Below, piece after piece: positions 16,787 through 26,917 of a DNA stretch of 26,917 nucleotides. Position 1 is the first letter of the stretch, and each line of letters starts with the position of its first letter. The notes under the pieces are model-generated. The model searched no databases, was not told the DNA's origin, and saw only the letters and a list, made by a program, of their open reading frames with translations. This DNA comes from Candidatus Nanohaloarchaea archaeon (GTDB taxonomy: Archaea > Nanohalarchaeota > Nanosalinia > Nanosalinales > Nanosalinaceae). The stretch is from positions 1 to 26,917 of the forward strand of contig JBLGBN010000012.1 of assembly GCA_047617745.1 (NCBI GenBank). Direction: 5' to 3'. The position numbers were made by a program, and so were the translations under genes.

Positions 16787-18598
16787 ATAAAACCTGCAAA
16801 GATGACCAAGCTATCGATCACAGGACTGAAGAGAGACCTTAGACCGGTCATCGAAGAACTTCACAATCTCGAACTCCTTGATATCGAAGATTACTCTGGA
16901 GAACTTGATACCGGAGAAACATTTGAGGAGGGTGAGGAAATCTCACAGCTACTTGTTGATCTCCGATCTCTTCTATCAAAGCTACCGAAAACAGAGGATT
17001 CGGAAGCTTCAGGTTTAGGATTCGAAGAGGTACACGAAAAAATTCCGGAGCTCAACGAAACCGTAAATGGTATTGAGGATCAGATAGCTGAACTGGAATC
17101 AGAAATCAATGAAATCAAAACGCAGAGAAACTTTTTCAAGAAAGTTTCAAACCTTGACCTGGAATACAGAGACCTCCAGGGAACAAGAGAGCTGGACTGT
17201 TTTGTCGGAAAGATTGATACAGAGCAGTTTGAAACGGAAGCTCCTAACACCAAATACGAATTGCTGGAGGGCAGAGGAGCAGATGTAGTTTTCTACCCTG
17301 AAGGAGAGGGATTTGAACAGGTAATTGAAAAAACTTCTAAGGATATTTTTGACTGCCCTCAAACTGATCTTGAAGGTCATGTATCCGATATCGAAGAAAA
17401 GCTTGCAGATAGTCTTGAAGAATTAAGACAGGAAAGAAACGCAAAACGGGAGGAGCTTCAACAACTTTCAGAGGGATGGAGAACAGACCTTGAGGAGACT
17501 GAGGAGTTCATGACGGAGAAAGTTGAGAAAGCTGAAGCTCCTATAAAATTTGCTACAACCGATTCGGCATTCTTTGCCAAAGGATGGGTTCCGACTGAGA
17601 AGTTTGGAAAGGTTGAGGAGAGACTTGCCCAGGTAACAGAGGGCAGGGTTCATGTCCAGGAGGAAGACGGCAATAACCCTCCTGTAAAGCACGACAACGT
17701 TGGACCTGTAAAGAACTTCGAGGATCTCACAGATCTCGTATCTGTACCTAAATACAACGAACTTGATCCTTCATTCATGCTACTACTAACGTTTCCACTA
17801 TTCTTCGGATTTATGATCGGGGATGCAGGATACGGATTAACATCACTGATTGTTTTCTACGCCGGTATGAAGATGTTTCCCGGGGCAACAGATATTTTCA
17901 AGTCACTGATGTACGCATCAGTCGCCACAATCATATTCGGACTGGCGTTCGGAGACGCCTTCGGGTATGTCCTGTTCGGTCATCACTCCGATCTTGCAGC
18001 AGTAACAGGTATACATCTGTTCGAGCAGATACCGCTTCTATGGCACAGAGCAGAACACTTGAACCAGGTATTCCAGATCTCCGCGCTTATCGGTTTAGTG
18101 CACGTTAACATAGGATACCTGCTCGGATTTTACAACGAGCATGTCAACCACGGGTTCAAGGAAGCGTTCCTTGAGAAAGGAAGCTGGCTGATGCTTGAAG
18201 TAGGCGCAGCACTCTGGTACTTCGGTGGTATGACAGCAGGAGCGCCAGTAATAGCAATCTCAGTAGCACTGCTCTACCTTGGAGAAGGAGTGGAAGGGGT
18301 TGTGGAGATTCCTTCACTGCTTTCAAATGTGTTATCTTATCTCAGAATATTTGGTGTGTCGGTCGCAGCAGTTTCACTGGCGGCGGTTGTCAATGGACTG
18401 GCTGATCCGCTTTTCCAGTCAGGATCGATGATCGGCATCGCGCTGGGAGTAGTAATGCTGATATTCGGACACACTTTCAACACGTTCATCAAAATCATGG
18501 AAGGCTTCCTCCAGGGCATCCGACTTCACTATGTCGAGATGTTCTCAAAGTTTTACGAAGGAGGAGGCAGAAAATATGTTCCTTTCGGATCAAGTTAA
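16787..18598 (+). CDS. atpI: A/V-type ATP synthase subunit I (a)
   Basis: GWVP, PKYNELDP, FFGFMIGDAGYG, essential Arg in LSYLRIFG, RLHYVEMFSKFYEGGG. First ATG is 16802, but the SD position and the conserved xPxxM N-terminus point to ATA 16787 (see findings). Confidence refers to the product, not the start. Confidence 0.95.
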   Translation: MKPAKMTKLSITGLKRDLRPVIEELHNLELLDIEDYSGELDTGETFEEGEEISQLLVDLRSLLSKLPKTEDSEASGLGFEEVHEKIPELNETVNGIEDQIAELESEINEIKTQRNFFKKVSNLDLEYRDLQGTRELDCFVGKIDTEQFETEAPNTKYELLEGRGADVVFYPEGEGFEQVIEKTSKDIFDCPQTDLEGHVSDIEEKLADSLEELRQERNAKREELQQLSEGWRTDLEETEEFMTEKVEKAEAPIKFATTDSAFFAKGWVPTEKFGKVEERLAQVTEGRVHVQEEDGNNPPVKHDNVGPVKNFEDLTDLVSVPKYNELDPSFMLLLTFPLFFGFMIGDAGYGLTSLIVFYAGMKMFPGATDIFKSLMYASVATIIFGLAFGDAFGYVLFGHHSDLAAVTGIHLFEQIPLLWHRAEHLNQVFQISALIGLVHVNIGYLLGFYNEHVNHGFKEAFLEKGSWLMLEVGAALWYFGGMTAGAPVIAISVALLYLGEGVEGVVEIPSLLSNVLSYLRIFGVSVAAVSLAAVVNGLADPLFQSGSMIGIALGVVMLIFGHTFNTFIKIMEGFLQGIRLHYVEMFSKFYEGGGRKYVPFGSS

Positions 18599-18626
18599 AT
18601 CAATATTTCAGGTGAAAACCACTATG
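18596..18626 (+). repeat. Intergenic cassette copy 1: TAAATCAATA-N4-AGGTGAAA-N6-ATG
   Basis: Same sequence blocks and identical offsets as 20828-20858 (GGTGA 15 nt and ATG 28 nt after the first base of the upstream TAA). Confidence 0.8.
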
Positions 18627-18671
18627 CTCAAAATCACAAAAACACAAGGTGAAATCCAAAAATGGCAGTAG
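18624..18671 (+). CDS. Putative leader mini-ORF (MLKITKTQGEIQKWQ) overlapping the atpK start
   Basis: SD GGTGA 18611-18615, 8 nt before the ATG; ACTATG context as in tfb, atpE and atpB. Contains the atpK SD; its stop lies within the first 10 nt of atpK. Confidence 0.5.
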   Translation: MLKITKTQGEIQKWQ

Positions 18672-18886
18672 GACAGTTTGCAGCAATCGGTGCAGGACTG
18701 GCTGTAGGTATTGCAGCACTTGCAACAGGATGGGCCCAGGCAAAGATCGGATCCGCTGGAGTTGGCGCTCTGGCAGAAGACGACAGCCTGTTCGGACAGG
18801 TTCTTATCCTGACAGTCATCCCGGAGACTATGGTTATCTTCGGACTCGTAGTCGCACTGGTTGCCACAGGCTTCATTGGAGCATAA
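18662..18886 (+). CDS. atpK: A/V-type ATP synthase subunit K (c, proteolipid, single hairpin)
   Basis: 74 aa, two TM helices; AQAKIGSAGVGALAED, and IPETMVIFG with the ion-binding Glu. Confidence 0.96.
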   Translation: MAVGQFAAIGAGLAVGIAALATGWAQAKIGSAGVGALAEDDSLFGQVLILTVIPETMVIFGLVVALVATGFIGA

Positions 18887-18895
18887 AAACTCAAA

Positions 18896-18913
18896 GAGGG
18901 CCGCAAGGCTCTC
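18896..18913 (+). promoter_or_regulatory. GNRA-tetraloop hairpin downstream of atpK
   Basis: GAGGGCC-GCAA-GGCTCTC: 7-bp stem (one G-U) with GCAA loop, 9 nt after the atpK stop. Confidence 0.65.
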
Positions 18914-18964
18914 CCAAACCTTTCATTTATTCAAATACAACAAAACGTGAGGAAAAAAGATACT

Positions 18965-19498
18965 ATGGGACTTGAAGAAATCAAATCGGAAATTCTGCAG
19001 GAAGCAGAGCAAAAATCAGACGAAATAGTCAAAGAAGCTGAAGAAGAAAGGGATAGAATTATCGAAGAAGCTGAAGAAGAAGCTGAACAGATCAAAGAGG
19101 AAATGGAGGAAGAACTTGAAGAAGAGAAGGAAAACTACAGGAAGAAAGCTCTATCCAGCGCCCGGATGAAGGCGAAAGAGGAGAAGATGAGAGCAAAGCA
19201 AGATGAGATTGAAGAAGTATTCAAGGAGTTTAGACACTATCTCGACAAACTGACTGAAAGCGAAAAAGAAAAGTTCGCTGAATCCTGTCTTGACAAAGTT
19301 GACTTCGAAGTCGCAAAAGTTGAGGGAAGCTCGGAGTTCAGCGGAGCCGTAGATGTTGATTTTGAGGAGAAAGAAAATATTGAAGGAATCCGGGTTATTT
19401 CAGAAGACGGAAGCCGGATGCAGAGCTTTACCTTCGACAAAATCCTAAAGCAGATGAAAGAAGAGCACAGAAAGGAAGTCGCGGACATACTTTTCTGA
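18965..19498 (+). CDS. atpE: A/V-type ATP synthase subunit E
   Basis: MGLEEIKSEILQEAE coiled coil, C-terminal GIRVISEDGS...FTFD...EVADILF. ATG 18965 preferred over GTG 18947. Confidence 0.93.
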   Translation: MGLEEIKSEILQEAEQKSDEIVKEAEEERDRIIEEAEEEAEQIKEEMEEELEEEKENYRKKALSSARMKAKEEKMRAKQDEIEEVFKEFRHYLDKLTESEKEKFAESCLDKVDFEVAKVEGSSEFSGAVDVDFEEKENIEGIRVISEDGSRMQSFTFDKILKQMKEEHRKEVADILF

Positions 19499-19508
19499 GG
19501 TGTATAGA

Positions 19509-20507
19509 ATGATATCACGAGACTACCCCTACATGTACGCAAGAGTAAGCGCCAAGAAGGCCAAACTGCTCGAGGAATCAGATTACCAGCAGCTAATCAA
19601 GATGGAGCCGAACGAGATAGCGAGAAAGCTCCAGGAAGGAGGCTACAAGACAGATATCGACGAACTTGGTGTGGAATATGACGGGGTAGAGCTCGTGGAA
19701 CTCGCTCTCATGAGGAATGTTTCAAGGACGATGGCAGACATGATAGATATATCGCCAGATTCTCTTGACCCGGTTATCAATTCCTTCCTGAGACGGTACG
19801 ACATTCTTAGCCTCAAGAGACTTCTGAGATGGAAGAAAGGAGGAGAGAAAGGAGAGGTTAAAGACCTGCTTGTACCTGTAGGACAGTACACGGCTGAAGA
19901 TCTCCAAGAACTCTCGGAGAAAAGCTTTGAGGAAATATGTCGATCTATAAAATTCAAGGATTCAGATGTAGACTATCAGTCCTTTATAGAGAACACTGAT
20001 GACATAAGAGAAGTCGAGAGAAATCTTGACCGCGCTTACTATAAGGAAATGAGGCAGACAGCTGATTCACTTGGCAACATGTGGTTCAAGAAGTTCATCA
20101 GAAAAGAAGTTGAGTACGAAGATCTGAAAATAGCTTTACGGCTGAAGAAGTATGGACTGGAGATAGAGGAAATAGAGGAATGGCTTGTAGGCGAGAAAAT
20201 AACGAAATGCATCGAGAAAGTACTGGAATCGGAGAATCTAGATGAAGCAATTAAAGAAGTCGAGGAATGTGAGGGATTAGAGTTCCAGAATGGAAAGAAT
20301 ATCGAAGATGTGGAACATACACTGGAAATTGAGAGACTGAAATCCGCCTTCAGAACGCTTCACACAGAGCCGCTCGGACTAACATCAGTATTCGGATATA
20401 TTGTTGCAAAAATGGTTGAGGTCAAGAACCTCAGAATGCTTATCAGAGCTAAAGAGACAAATATCCAAAACCAGGAAACAATCAGGAGAAACCTGGTAAT
20501 AGCATAG
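19509..20507 (+). CDS. atpC: A/V-type ATP synthase subunit C (d-like)
   Basis: YPYMYARVSAKKAKLL, RRYDI..LK..LR.K and YIVAKMVEVKNLRMLIRAK. SD GAGGTG favours ATG 19509 over GTG 19500. Confidence 0.95.
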   Translation: MISRDYPYMYARVSAKKAKLLEESDYQQLIKMEPNEIARKLQEGGYKTDIDELGVEYDGVELVELALMRNVSRTMADMIDISPDSLDPVINSFLRRYDILSLKRLLRWKKGGEKGEVKDLLVPVGQYTAEDLQELSEKSFEEICRSIKFKDSDVDYQSFIENTDDIREVERNLDRAYYKEMRQTADSLGNMWFKKFIRKEVEYEDLKIALRLKKYGLEIEEIEEWLVGEKITKCIEKVLESENLDEAIKEVEECEGLEFQNGKNIEDVEHTLEIERLKSAFRTLHTEPLGLTSVFGYIVAKMVEVKNLRMLIRAKETNIQNQETIRRNLVIA

Positions 20508-20518
20508 GTGGAGAAAAA

Positions 20519-20830
20519 ATGGAAAATGAAGAAGACAAGAAATCGATCGCAGTAATAGGGGAAAGAGAGTTCACGGTAGGATTCGAACTGGCAGGAGTTC
20601 AGAAGACATACGGAAAGGAAAACTACCGGGAGCAGATCCAGGAACTGATCGAAAGAGAGGACTTGGGAATTATCGTCGCGGAAAAATCCGATATTGATGA
20701 ACTCCCGGAAAGAATTAGAAGAAAGGTTAACGAATCCGTTGACCCTGTTGTAGTACCGCTTTCAGAGAAGGCAGAGGACTCACAGCTACAGGACAAAATC
20801 AGAAAGGTAATCGGAGTGGATTTATCTTAA
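20519..20830 (+). CDS. atpF: A/V-type ATP synthase subunit F
   Basis: IAVIGEREFTVGFELAGV, DLGIIV, SVDPVVV and IRKVIGVDL. Confidence 0.95.
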   Translation: MENEEDKKSIAVIGEREFTVGFELAGVQKTYGKENYREQIQELIEREDLGIIVAEKSDIDELPERIRRKVNESVDPVVVPLSEKAEDSQLQDKIRKVIGVDLS

Positions 20831-20858
20831 ATCAATACTAAAGGTGAAATTCAAAATG
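20828..20858 (+). repeat. Intergenic cassette copy 2: TAAATCAATA-N4-AGGTGAAA-N6-ATG
   Basis: Matches 18596-18626 in sequence blocks and spacing. Confidence 0.8.
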
Positions 20859-20909
20859 AAAACTCAAAACGCGCTATTCGATTTCAGCTCAGAAGGTGAT
20901 GCTGAATGA
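20856..20909 (+). CDS. Putative leader mini-ORF ([17 protein letters not shown]) coupled to atpA
   Basis: SD GGTGA 20843-20847, 8 nt before the ATG. Contains the atpA SD (20895-20899) and ends in an ATGA overlap with the atpA start. Confidence 0.55.
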
Positions 20910-22663
20910 CACAGACACAAATTCAGGAAACAGAAAAGGACGGCACAATCTACAAGGTCGCAGGACCTGTAGTGATCGCCGAAAACATGGACCCTCAGAT
21001 GAACGACGTCGTCAAGGTAGGCGACGAAGGACTGATGGGAGAAGTAATCCAGATTGAAGGAGACAAAAGCTACATCCAGGTGTACGAAGACACCACCGGA
21101 GTTAAACCGGGGGAACCTGTACACAACACCGAGCAACCTCTATCCGTAGAGCTCGGGCCGGGACTGCTCGGTTCAATCTACGACGGTCTTCAGAGACCGC
21201 TACCAGCTCTGCAGGACAAGACCGGTGACTTCATCGAAAGAGGAGAAGACGCACCGGGAATCGACCTGGAAAAAGAATACGAGTTCGAACCTGCTGTAGA
21301 AGAAGGAAAACACGTTACAGGTGGAGACGTACTTGGAACGACAGAAGTAGAGTACGGAGAACACAAAGTTCTACTACCTCCAGGAATCGAGGGAGAAGTA
21401 GAGGAAATCAAGGAAGGAAGCTTCACAGTAGAGGAAACCGTCGCAGTAGTCGACGGAGAAGAAGTAGCCATGAGACAGGAATGGCCGATCAGAGAAGCAA
21501 GACAGGTAGAAACCGACCTAGAACCAGAAGTACCTCTTGTCACAGGACAGAGAGTTCTCGACGGACTGTTCCCTCTTGCGAAAGGAGGAACAGCAGCGAT
21601 CCCAGGACCGTTCGGATCTGGGAAAACAGTTACACAGCAGAGCCTCGCCAAGTTCTCTGATGCCGATATAATTGTCTACATCGGATGCGGAGAACGTGGA
21701 AACGAGATGACAGAAGTACTGGAAGAGTTCCCAGAACTTGAAGACCCACAGACAGGGGACAAAATCATTAATCGAACAGTACTGATCGCAAACACATCAA
21801 ACATGCCTGTAGCAGCACGTGAAGCATCAATCTACACAGGTATCACGATTGCAGAATACTTCAGGGATCAGGGACTTGACGTCGCGCTGATGGCCGACTC
21901 AACCTCACGATGGGCAGAAGCCATGCGTGAGATCTCAGCAAGACTTGAAGAGATGCCCGGCGAAAGAGGATACCCTGCCTACCTTGCATCAAAACTCGCA
22001 AGCTTCTACGAGAGAGCAGGAAGAGTCGAACCGCTCGGACCGGAAGATCCGGGATCAGTTTCCATCATCGGGGCGGTTTCACCTCCTGGTGGAGACTTTT
22101 CGGAGCCGGTAACACAGAACACGCTCAGAGTTGTGAAGAACTTCTGGGCGCTTGACTCCGATCTGGCCGAGAAAAGACACTTCCCGGCGATCAACTGGGA
22201 CGACTCCTACTCGGGATACAGCGAGATGCTTTCCGACTACTTCGAGGAAGAAGTCGATGCAGACTGGACAGAAAACATCCAGAGAATGAGAGACATCCTT
22301 CAGAAAGACGGAGAACTGCAGGAAACAGTACAGCTCGTTGGTAAAGACGCACTGCCAGACAGGGAAAGACTGACACTCAGAATTGCAAACCTGATCAAGC
22401 AGTTCTACCTGCAGCAGAACGCTTTCCACGATGTTGATCAGTACTCAAGTCCTCAGAAAACATTCGATATCCTTGAACTGATCCTTGACTGGGCAGACAA
22501 TGCTTACGAAGCACTTGAAGAAGGAGCGCTTGTAGAAGATATCGTTGCTCTGGATTCAGGGAACAGGATTTCCGAACTCAAGTTCGAGGAAGACTACGAA
22601 GAACTCAAAACCGAGATCCGGAAACAGATGGAAACCGAGTTTGAGGACGTAGTCGAGGAGTAG
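20906..22663 (+). CDS. atpA: A/V-type ATP synthase catalytic subunit A
   Basis: Walker [61 protein letters not shown] and HFPAINW. No intein. Confidence 0.99.
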
Positions 22664-22674
22664 AGGTGAATACT

Positions 22675-24068: not shown

Positions 24069-24386
24069 ATGGCATACGCAGGCGAAGCCGAAAGAGTCCA
24101 CGATGTAGATATTGAAGAGGTCGAGGATTACCTCCGGGAAGTTCCTGAAGATTATGCAGGTGTAGAAAGCCAAGAGGGGGCAGAAATAGACAGAGAGACC
24201 GATATCAAGGAACTGCTGGAAGAAGCAGATCGGGCTACCCTAACTGACGACTACAACCCTACTGGATCTATCGGTTTCAGCTTGTTTGAATCCCAGAACG
24301 GGAGAGGAGAGAAAATTGATGAAATAGATGTAGATATAGACGAGATCGGTGATGAAGACAGGATTTACATGGAGATGATAGAATGA
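24069..24386 (+). CDS. Uncharacterised highly acidic protein inside the ATP synthase operon (orfX)
   Basis: Fills the atpB-atpD gap exactly: ATG 2 nt after the atpB stop with GAGGAGTGA upstream, and ATGA overlap with atpD. Confidence 0.8.
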   Translation: MAYAGEAERVHDVDIEEVEDYLREVPEDYAGVESQEGAEIDRETDIKELLEEADRATLTDDYNPTGSIGFSLFESQNGRGEKIDEIDVDIDEIGDEDRIYMEMIE

Positions 24387-25855: not shown

Positions 25856-26917
25856 TTACTTCTCTTCCTCGTCTTCTTCCTCGTCTTCTACTTCCTGTTC
25901 AGCTTTCTCTTCCAGGTTCGGCACCATTTCCTCAGTGTCAGCTGCCTGCGCAACCGCTGAAGTATCCATGTCAGGGGTCATCTCCTCGGTTTCCTCGGCT
26001 TCTCTCATCTCTTTGATATCTTTGCCGACCTGTGAGACGAATTCCTTGGTGTCCTGCTTGAGTTCGTAAAGCTCTTTCTCGTTGACATCGTCCATGTCCT
26101 TGTCCTTGACTTTCTCGATGATTTCCTCCCATCTGTCGAACATCTCGACATGGTTTTCATCTACATCCAGATTCTCTTCGACTGTTTCTGGAAGTTTGTC
26201 TCTATCCTCGGGTGGACTGACGCCCTGCGATTTAAGTGCTGCGACGTTTGCCTTGAGGAATTTCTTGTAGTCATCTACTATTCCTTTTACCTTTTTCTTG
26301 GCTCCTAACTGTGAAACAAGCTTATGCATTCTCCGGACAAAGTCGTCGGCTTTCTCCAGGTGTTCCTCTACTTCCTGTCCAGTGACTTCTTCCGAGTTTT
26401 TCTCTCCCTTGTCTCCGAAGTCGTACAGTTCCTGAGCTATTTCTACGTACTCTTCCTCGAGCATTTCCTTCTCGACGAACATTTCCTCCAGTGTCTCCGG
26501 TACTTTTTCTTTTGGTGGCGGGTTCTTTCCTACAAGCATAATCGGTGCCTGTCCTGCGTTCGCCATAACCTGTTCAAGCTTGTGCGGGATTGACTGCTTC
26601 AGGTTCTTCTCTGCTTTTTTGTATCCTGCTGCAGCCATCTTGAGTCGTTTCTTGACGGATTCACGTGTAGCTTTGATCTTTCCTCTCTGTAGAAGTCTTT
26701 TTGCTGGCATGAAGATTCCTGTGTCGTATACAGGTTCTCCGTTTCTTACTGCTTCGATTGCTAGTGGTTCTCCTTTACGCAGTGAGTCCCAGAACTCTGT
26801 GAGGAATGGGAAGTACTGTAGTGTAATTCTTTCATCTGTTTCTTTGGCTGCCTCGTTAACTTTCTGTCTTATCTTTTTCCTGGCGTCTTTTGGAACGTCT
26901 TTCTGCAGCTTTGTATC
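25856..26917 (-). CDS. 5'-truncated probable nucleotidyltransferase + HEPN-like protein with acidic tail
   Basis: The frame stays open from the window edge (DTKLQKDVPKDARKK...LTEFWDSLRKGEPLAIEAVRNGEPVYDTGIFMPAKRLLQRGKI). The G.PVYD.G segment resembles the end of a minimal nucleotidyltransferase fold and is followed by a helical HEPN-like region. Catalytic motifs would lie outside the window. Confidence 0.6.
   Translation of the reverse strand, partial: DTKLQKDVPKDARKKIRQKVNEAAKETDERITLQYFPFLTEFWDSLRKGEPLAIEAVRNGEPVYDTGIFMPAKRLLQRGKIKATRESVKKRLKMAAAGYKKAEKNLKQSIPHKLEQVMANAGQAPIMLVGKNPPPKEKVPETLEEMFVEKEMLEEEYVEIAQELYDFGDKGEKNSEEVTGQEVEEHLEKADDFVRRMHKLVSQLGAKKKVKGIVDDYKKFLKANVAALKSQGVSPPEDRDKLPETVEENLDVDENHVEMFDRWEEIIEKVKDKDMDDVNEKELYELKQDTKEFVSQVGKDIKEMREAEETEEMTPDMDTSAVAQAADTEEMVPNLEEKAEQEVEDEEEDEEEK

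What the first reader, a model, noticed from the sequence alone, without database searches (positions are those of the whole stretch)
18596..20909. Duplicated leader-cistron cassette ahead of the multi-copy ATP synthase subunits K(c) and A
Seen: the atpI-atpK and atpF-atpA spacers align exactly, TAAATCAATA tttc AGGTGAAA accact ATG (18596-18626) and TAAATCAATA ctaa AGGTGAAA ttcaaa ATG (20828-20858). Each ATG opens a mini-ORF (15 and 17 aa, both containing KTQ) in the same -1 frame relative to the next gene. Each mini-ORF contains a second AAGGTGA SD and stops on top of the downstream start. The other junctions in the operon have a single SD and, apart from atpK-atpE, almost no spacer. Established: c forms a multi-copy ring and A/B are present three times, and two-SD leader cistrons boost downstream translation by coupling in engineered bicistronic designs. 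Inference: this is a natural translational amplifier placed where output must step up, or a conserved mRNA processing or protein-binding site. I do not know of a description of it for archaeal ATP synthase operons.
Basis: partly seen in the sequence, partly recalled or inferred. Interest (0 to 1): 0.8.

Follow-up and report, generated by a model that had tools for sequence, protein, structure and literature searches.

The report
Relay mini-ORFs before ATP synthase genes
The tiny reading frames in front of two ATP synthase genes are real, but they look like worn-down relics of small insertions that pushed in behind each gene's original start signal and now pass the ribosome on, a pattern seen at many housekeeping genes of these salt-loving nano-archaea rather than a booster built for multi-copy subunits.

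Summary
Both cassettes exist as described. In relatives, the first SD-ATG is simply the native atpK/atpA start region; the leader and second SD were added behind it. Leaders occur in 12 of 37 relatives at atpK and 17 of 34 at atpA, but also before atpE, atpB, atpF, rpS28e and rpoB' (23 of 29). Frames vary, yet 67 of 72 leaders stop within 12 nt of the next start (28.8 expected). Many are copies of a ~55-nt two-hairpin repeat found in 41 of 50 family genomes and shown to be inserted by an empty/filled pair. It works like mycobacterial MIRUs. The scan found this repeat family before on other DNA (e1-6951821, e1-6892898, e1-2717184). The two window copies no longer match the repeat model, so their descent from it is inferred. 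New here: the atpK leader is nearly frozen within the genus (0 and 2 of 38 changes against 41-52% at silent sites) and lacks the occluding hairpin, so it is now under selection. Verdict: coupling relay, probably a domesticated insertion; amplification is possible but unshown.

The parts
18596..18623 (+). atpI stop codon followed by the native atpK initiation region (ATATTT motif, SD1 AGGTGA at 18610-18615); now drives the leader
   Evidence: aligns with the single atpK start region of leaderless relatives G008, G021, G022
18624..18671 (+). Leader ORF 1, 15 aa, -1 frame, A/C-rich and unstructured; stop lies 10 nt inside atpK
   Evidence: fold z=+1.1; 0 of 38 nt differ from G001 and 2 of 38 from G002/G003 between the two ATGs
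18647..18652 (+). SD2 for atpK, 9 nt before the start, not in a stable hairpin
18662..18886 (+). atpK, single-hairpin subunit c, 74 aa
   Evidence: Pfam PF00137, E=3.8e-19
18896..18913 (+). GC-rich hairpin plus U-rich tract directly after atpK; candidate 3' stabiliser or partial terminator that could raise atpK mRNA
   Evidence: z=-2.98, 0 of 200 shuffles; fold of -8 kcal/mol or better in 37 of 37 family genomes
20828..20855 (+). atpF stop codon followed by the native atpA initiation region (ATACTA motif, SD1 AGGTGA at 20842-20847)
   Evidence: same motif precedes atpA directly in leaderless relatives such as G008, G009, G021, G030
20856..20909 (+). Leader ORF 2, 17 aa, -1 frame, ATGA overlap with atpA
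   Evidence: ends conserved and middle freely changed in G001-G003
20883..20906 (+). Modest hairpin holding SD2 (AGGTGAT, 20894-20900) in its loop and 3' arm
   Evidence: -9.4 kcal/mol but z=0.01, no better than shuffles; a similar stem is predicted in G002 and G003, which differ by one two-sided change (read by eye)
20906..22663 (+). atpA, catalytic subunit A, 585 aa
   Evidence: ORF; name from sequence features and operon order (established knowledge), not from a family search here

Best explanation
Each cassette is the gene's original start region, followed by a short inserted stretch that carries a new Shine-Dalgarno motif and a new start. Ribosomes load at the old start (inferred), translate a throw-away peptide, stop on or beside the new start and reinitiate there with the help of SD2, or open SD2 for new ribosomes (inferred from Haloferax and E. 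coli work). The inserts most likely came from the small two-hairpin repeat that has hit many gene starts in this family, including these same two junctions in other genera (shown for relatives, inferred for this genome). Here the copies have decayed: the atpK copy has lost the hairpin arm that covered SD2. They are now kept by purifying selection because they stand on the only translation route into essential genes. Their role is to preserve expression (a relay), with at most secondary tuning.
For: SD1-ATG1 is the native start region. Patchy presence within genera: G033 vs G021, G035 vs G023, G027 vs G012, G004 vs the rest of this genus. 67 of 72 and 24 of 25 leaders end at the next start in any frame. 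Clear repeat copies sit at atpK (G007, G027, G035) and atpA (G010, G020, G026, G027, G035) with shuffle p=0.005. The repeat is dispersed (598 matches in 41 of 50 genomes, 0-56 per genome, both strands counted), covaries as two hairpins (0 of 500 shuffles), and is absent from the otherwise matching IS605 end of a sister genome. G007 and G027 carry an identical 53-nt insert before atpK genes only 78% alike. The orthologous atpK leader of G002/G003 matches the repeat's second arm (p=0.005). This genome has one weak repeat match at a gene start (E=0.0055) and a weaker one (E=0.7). Strong constraint on the leader within the genus. MIRU precedent (PMC12548453, passage read).
Against: The window copies do not match the repeat model (no hit at these coordinates up to E=10) and score p=0.20 and 0.18 against 37 repeat copies; the G002/G003 value is the floor of 200 shuffles among 72 tests. 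The rpoB' leaders (0 of 24 at p<0.05 against family A) show that leaders can exist without a recognisable copy of that repeat. No mobilising gene found: Y1 transposase in 2 of 50 genomes, GIY-YIG in 10 of 50 with no such hairpin in 13 of 13 loci. No target duplication beyond ATG. A crude accessibility test did not show SD2 more occluded than single SDs at atpK or atpA. Leaders are enriched before multi-copy subunits within the operon. No translation data.
Confidence: 0.6

Rival explanations
1. Dedicated amplifier: two loading sites in series raise output of subunits c and A, as in engineered bicistronic designs, and were selected for that.
For: Leaders are enriched before K, A, B, E over C, F, D. 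The atpK leader is unstructured, SD2 has native-like spacing and the leader is nearly invariant in the genus. Short coupled ORFs are used to boost expression in biotechnology (PMC12548453, passage).
Against: 25 of 37 relatives lack an atpK leader and 17 of 34 an atpA leader; single-copy rpoB' has the most leaders (23 of 29); weaker start codons are commoner behind leaders. A hairpin after atpK in 37 of 37 genomes is a more universal candidate for boosting c (function untested). Enrichment could equally reflect that K, A, B and E have free-standing strong starts that tolerate insertion.
Confidence: 0.17
2. Same relay function, but the leaders arose locally (duplication of the start region or a split of the gene's N-terminus) and are unrelated to the repeat family.
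For: No significant match of the window copies to the repeat. SD2 plus spacer of atpK resembles the native start regions. Non-repeat A/C-rich leaders are common before rpoB' and atpE.
Against: Orthologous atpK leaders in G002/G003 match the repeat arm; the same junctions carry clear repeat copies and intermediate forms in other genera; this genome's atpA and rpS28e leaders share 17 of their first 18 nt.
Confidence: 0.15
3. The shared TTAAAT 29 nt before each leader ATG is an internal TATA box giving leaderless transcripts that start at the mini-ORFs, or the shared motif is an RNA processing site.
For: This genome's SD-less genes show a TATA peak 28-36 nt before the ATG, and TTAAAT lies at -29 in both cassettes. 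G001 has a strong site at atpI-K (score 10.6).
Against: Against a matrix from 91 putative promoters the two sites score 2.1 and 1.5; the training sites have a 5th percentile of 6.9 and coding background a 95th of 2.0. Only 3 of 37 and 2 of 34 related sites pass 6. SD1 would lie outside such a transcript yet is the most conserved part. The M. maripaludis ATP synthase operon is one transcript without internal terminator (PMC10450193, passage).
Confidence: 0.06
4. The peptides act as small proteins, or a frameshift fuses them to subunits c and A.
For: The atpK leader peptide differs by at most 1 of 15 residues among four genomes of the genus.
Against: Orthologous leaders use all three frames, frame-0 ones end in a stop before the gene, and peptides are unrelated across genera; the middle of the atpA leader changes freely.
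Confidence: 0.02

Closest known systems
MIRUs, mycobacterial interspersed repetitive units (Supply et al. 1997; known to me only through passages of PMC12548453 and PMC3184786)
   Same: 40-100-bp repeats that insert at start codons in operons and carry a small ORF coupled to the gene behind, which is thought to make the insertion harmless.
   Different: Archaeal and AT-rich; stops fall from -7 to +11 in any frame rather than at -4; no 4-bp target duplication found; the window copies are decayed and under purifying selection.
Translational coupling by termination-reinitiation in Haloferax volcanii (PMC6728339 passages; PMC10666635 abstract)
   Same: Stop/start overlaps or very short gaps with an SD inside the upstream ORF; coupling is reported to fall off strongly by about 20 nt.
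   Different: There the upstream ORF is a real gene; here it is a 15-17-codon throw-away started from the gene's former start region.
SMR-A short mobile repeats of Haloquadratum walsbyi (PMC3119063, section 25 read)
   Same: Short transposase-free palindromic repeats with no known mobiliser that insert into the near-terminal palindromes of IS605-type elements; one family-A copy does exactly this in G066.
   Different: SMR-A are about 110 bp and are not described as carrying SD/start signals; sequence relationship was not tested.
Nanohaloarchaeal start-codon double-hairpin repeats noted earlier in this scan (e1-6951821, e1-6892898, e1-2717184; AI notes)
   Same: Same architecture, same kind of host and target genes as the family found independently here.
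   Different: The window cassettes are not recognisable members; they would be its end stage.
Engineered bicistronic design and natural coupled uORFs (PMC12548453 passage; PMC13285730 abstract)
   Same: Two SDs in series with a short leader ending at the target start.
   Different: No evidence here of higher output; natural uORFs can also lower expression by occluding the main RBS.

Membership tests
Nanohaloarchaeal two-hairpin start-codon repeat (family A, model R1) | Two GAAAAYC/GRTTTTC hairpins, about 55 nt | tested here: not met
   no R1 hit at either cassette up to E=10; folds
Nanohaloarchaeal two-hairpin start-codon repeat (family A, model R1) | Residual sequence similarity to repeat copies | tested here: inconclusive
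   p=0.20 and 0.18 for the window; p=0.005 for the orthologous atpK leader in G002 and G003
Nanohaloarchaeal two-hairpin start-codon repeat (family A, model R1) | Lies between native SD-ATG and gene body, with own SD and a stop at the new start | tested here: met
MIRU-like start-codon insertion | Empty and filled orthologous sites | tested here: met
   25 of 37 atpK and 17 of 34 atpA sites are empty
MIRU-like start-codon insertion | Tetranucleotide direct repeat around the insert | tested here: not met
   bases next to the two ATGs agree in 21 of 55 and 25 of 55 leaders, no more than permuted; the atpA cassette has AATGA twice, the atpK cassette only ATG
MIRU-like start-codon insertion | Tens of near-identical copies in the genome | tested here: not met
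   this genome: 1 match at E<=0.05; relatives have up to 56 matches
Termination-reinitiation gene pair | Overlap or very short gap plus SD in the upstream ORF | tested here: met
   atpA: ATGA overlap; atpK: 10-nt overlap; SD2 6-9 nt upstream
Termination-reinitiation gene pair | Downstream translation depends on upstream translation | not testable with these tools
   needs reporters or ribosome profiling
REP/RAYT or PATE (IS200/IS605-derived) | Y1 HUH transposase in the genome, linked to the repeats | tested here: not met
   PF01797 in 2 of 50 genomes, not in this one (89% complete)
MITE | Terminal inverted repeats shared with a transposon, and a target duplication | tested here: inconclusive
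   full family-A copies have complementary ends but no parent transposon or clear duplication was found; the window copies lack such ends
Bicistronic-design amplifier | Higher output than the single-SD state | not testable with these tools
   no expression data
Rfam RNA families | Match to a curated model | tested here: not met
   window and four repeat loci gave two tRNAs and one chance hit

The most novel reading that the evidence does not exclude
A selfish start-codon insertion has been domesticated into a natural two-ribosome-binding-site booster: after landing behind the atpK start, it lost the hairpin arm that hid its SD, took on native spacing, froze in sequence, and now raises c-subunit output above the single-start state. 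More widely, this archaeal family may tune subunit ratios of its core machines by gaining and trimming such leaders.
Probability: 0.17. Interest if true: 0.75.

Novelty: new variant of a known kind. Interest (0 to 1): 0.5.

Why it matters
If the reading holds, genome-reduced nano-archaea tolerate repeated insertion at the start codons of essential genes because each insert hands the ribosome on. The ATP synthase operon then offers a natural series of empty, full, chained, truncated and decayed states at the same junctions. That series makes it directly testable whether coupled leaders are neutral passengers or tune stoichiometry, and it warns against reading such leaders as purpose-built regulators. 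It also matters for annotation: start sites and spurious small ORFs in these genomes.

Tried and rejected
Exact 22-nt cassette as a conserved motif: found only in this genome. Internal promoter: weak scores; the bacterial promoter/terminator scan gave nothing at these spacers and does not cover archaeal signals. Fixed -1 frame or frameshift fusion: frames vary. Direct membership in repeat family A: no hit. Family B model R2: 3 matches in this genome, all beside tRNA-like genes, none in the window. Hairpin patterns in this genome gave no array of intact copies. Target-site duplication: none beyond ATG. Mobiliser searches PF01797 and PF01541: no link. SD accessibility comparison: uninformative; single SDs scored as paired as SD2 in a crude window fold. 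Rfam: nothing. RNA runs: none was listed, so no reads were laid. A nucleotide HMM was built but not used for scoring. My gene caller for this genome is rough (840 genes, 81% coding), so genome-wide leader counts are indicative only. Literature: 10 full-text searches (search listings only unless a read is cited) showed no paper describing these leaders or repeats in Nanohaloarchaeota; the library lacks most subscription papers. PMC10266531 (passages) reports five ncRNAs in a nanohaloarchaeon, some with two hairpins; its Supplementary Table S3 was not looked at and could bear on novelty of the repeat. The Minerva preprint (passages) does not mention these organisms.
Full report
Observation. The window carries an archaeal A-type ATP synthase operon H-I-K-E-C-F-A-B-(extra ORF)-D (atpK confirmed by PF00137; the other names rest on order and sequence features from established knowledge). 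Both cassettes are present at the stated coordinates. The host is inferred to be a nanohaloarchaeon: 834-kb genome, acidic proteins, and 7 of 18 exact matches of the related repeat pattern in a species-wide collection carry nanohaloarchaeal titles. The 10-nt identity upstream of SD1 is unique to this genome (1 of 37 and 1 of 34 spacers). It reduces to a stop codon plus a start motif shared with leaderless relatives (31 of 37, 23 of 34). In this window alone the stop positions are not significant (null 0.70 and 0.56).

What the first SD-ATG is. atpK was found in 51 of 61 genomes searched; I fetched the operon region for 49 of the 50 others and scored junctions in the 37 genomes of this family. 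Most have one start region directly on atpK and atpA. Where a leader exists, that same region is kept and the leader, SD2 and new start follow it. So the leader is an addition behind the original start, not a duplicated cassette.

Distribution. Leaders ending at the next start (or handing to a second leader): atpK 12 of 37 (one, G024, has a weak SD), atpE 7 of 37, atpC 0 of 36, atpF 2 of 36, atpA 17 of 34, atpB 7 of 25, atpD 0 of 19, rpS28e 2 of 30, rpoB' 23 of 29 (rows lacking a usable start, upstream gene or with spacers over 260 nt were dropped; the last two junctions used the best 30 loci of 49 and 50 hits). On a FastTree tree of six subunits, presence differs within genera (many deep nodes weak). 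G010 and G026 have two leaders in a chain before atpA. In this genome, similar leaders precede rpoB', rpS28e, a HAD hydrolase and several genes without Pfam match.

Selection on the relay. Defining a leader without regard to where it stops (first ATG with SD of 5 or more, or preceded by ATACT/ATATT, in spacers of 28-200 nt), 67 of 72 stop within 12 nt of the next start against 28.8 expected when the middle is shuffled and the last 16 nt plus the gene are kept. Three of the five exceptions stop at or near a second leader. Kin are not independent and repeat copies inherit their open frames, so I removed 26 repeat-like leaders by hand and kept one per genus and junction: 24 of 25 against 11.5 expected, P about 1e-8 (still overstated). 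Frames are -1 in 37, and the other two in 21 and 14. Position of the stop is kept, frame and peptide are not: the signature of coupling, as shown for Haloferax gene pairs (PMC6728339 passages; PMC10666635 abstract).

A mobile source. Leaders at different junctions in different genera share sequence. Two modules emerged. Family A is about 55 nt with two hairpins and SD in the second (covariation 0 of 500 shuffles on 10 hand-picked copies, structure derived from them). Family B has a GC stem and a hairpin with SD in its loop; its core occurs at 17 sites in 15 of 50 genomes against 1 control match, at gene starts and beside tRNAs. Model R1 (family A) gives 598 matches in 41 of 50 genomes, 0-56 each, counting both strands and training copies, and reaches 7 of 20 genomes in other families of the phylum. 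The best non-training hit in 24 of 24 genomes inspected lies at a start codon with a leader stopping at -6 to +7 (biased, as the model was trained on such copies). In the complete genome G033 the 29 matches fall into 22 loci by my grouping (26 rows inspected, 3 overlapping rows left out): 15 at gene starts, mostly single-copy ribosomal, exosome and metabolic genes judged from their sequences, and 7 elsewhere, after stop codons or a tRNA. Mobility is shown by a 54-bp copy in the left-end palindrome of an IS200/IS605 element in G066 that is absent from the matching end in G067, and suggested by an identical 53-nt insert before atpK genes only 78% alike. No mobiliser was found. After reaching this reading I found that the scan had already noted this family in other nanohaloarchaeal genomes and similar ones in other small archaea and bacteria; those notes led me to the MIRU comparison, which I checked in PMC12548453 and PMC3184786 (passages).

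Are the window copies members? Not by test: no R1 hit; p=0.20 and 0.18 against 37 copies. Indirect support: the orthologous atpK leader in G002/G003 matches the repeat's second arm over 17 of 18 nt (p=0.005, floor value, 72 tests), the same junctions hold full, truncated and decayed copies in other genera, and this genome's atpA and rpS28e leaders share 17 of 18 first bases. Against a single origin: none of the 24 rpoB' leaders matches family A.

Present constraint. Four-fold sites of the operon differ by 41% (388 of 951) from G001 and 52% (455 of 875) from G002, yet the 38 nt between the two atpK ATGs differ at 0 and 2 positions; atpK itself is also well conserved (98% and 88%), so this is the constraint expected of heavily used start regions. 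The atpA leader keeps both ends and its frame (50 or 53 nt) while its middle changes. Both start regions therefore appear to be in use. The atpK leader is unstructured; the atpA hairpin is no more stable than shuffles.

Mechanism. Shown: anatomy, added-behind-the-start origin, stop-position bias, mobility of family A, constraint in the genus. Inferred: translation of the leaders, reinitiation at SD2, descent of these two copies from family A. Best reading (0.6): a relay left by an insertion and kept because it is the route into an essential gene. Amplifier (0.17): favoured by enrichment before multi-copy subunits and by the open, frozen atpK leader; weakened by the many relatives without leaders, by rpoB' and ribosomal targets, and by weaker start codons behind leaders (17 of 72 vs 13 of 211). 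Two more universal features may set stoichiometry: a hairpin after atpK in 37 of 37 genomes, and a likely non-ATG start for single-copy atpI in most of them; neither is tested. An internal promoter was considered because TTAAAT lies 29 nt before both leader ATGs but scores poorly and is not conserved.

Novelty. It works like a MIRU and like a coupled uORF, but is not a MIRU (no 4-bp duplication, different host and sequence). I found no paper on it in 10 searches of the held library; the scan has seen the repeat family before. What this window adds is the decayed, constrained end state at ATP synthase genes and the family-wide rule that even non-repeat leaders stay open to the next start. Score: new variant of a known kind, interest 0.5.

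Noticed in passing
window 16787-16789: atpI probably starts at ATA, 5 codons before the first ATG and at normal distance from its SD. At this position 27 of 35 family genomes have ATC, ATA or ATT, 4 have ATG (G002 and G008 have an ATG one codon earlier). A conserved non-ATG start could hold down the single-copy subunit a.
   Followed up: partly
window 18896-18930: GC hairpin plus U-rich tract right after atpK, with a stable fold in 37 of 37 family genomes; candidate mRNA stabiliser or partial terminator for the c subunit.
   Followed up: partly
window 24069-24386: Acidic 105-aa ORF without Pfam match between atpB and atpD; mostly unrelated-looking ORFs of similar size occupy this slot in 10 other genomes, and longer spacers also occur between atpA and atpB in several relatives.
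   Followed up: partly
L080 (G000:C13, near 26420-26500) and L121-L150: A/C-rich leader ORF between rpoB'' and rpoB' in 23 of 29 genomes scored, unrelated to repeat family A, often with an internal ATACTATG; possibly an older conserved coupler.
   Followed up: partly
G000:C6:7721-7776, C1:10202-10257, C16:12307-12362: Family B element in front of tRNA-like genes in this genome; its first stem looks like a kink-turn by eye (compare e1-7792564). In relatives it also lies at tRNA 3' ends, apparently inside tRNA genes, and at gene starts.
   Followed up: partly
L228:1340-1410 (G066) vs L229 (G067): 54-bp family-A copy inserted in the loop of an IS200/IS605 left-end palindrome; a second hairpin insert seems to sit in the right-end palindrome. 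Same targeting as SMR-A of Haloquadratum.
   Followed up: partly
G000:C8:16800-17100, C8:28770-29035, C19:7807-8030: Three genes without Pfam match are preceded by a TATA-like box, a short ORF or pyrimidine-rich tract, then a 25-27-codon A/C-rich leader; two share a conserved start after the TATA-like box.
   Followed up: no
L268, L269, L272, L274, L276, L280: A related double hairpin (same first hairpin and linker, different second hairpin) occurs in Woesearchaeota, Methanofastidiosia, Methanosarcinales and other archaeal MAGs, where my script found no gene start behind it.
   Followed up: no
window 18599-18609, 20831-20841, 18960-18964, 22670-22674: ATA(C/T)T motif either just before the SD (atpK, atpA) or directly before the ATG (atpE, atpB), recurring across the family; only slightly enriched genome-wide (6 of 833 at -5 vs about 1 expected). 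Role unexplained.
   Followed up: partly
G000:C6:7992-8016: A family-A-like hairpin lies inside what reads like a tRNA gene with an intron near the D-loop; ARAGORN did not call it.
   Followed up: no
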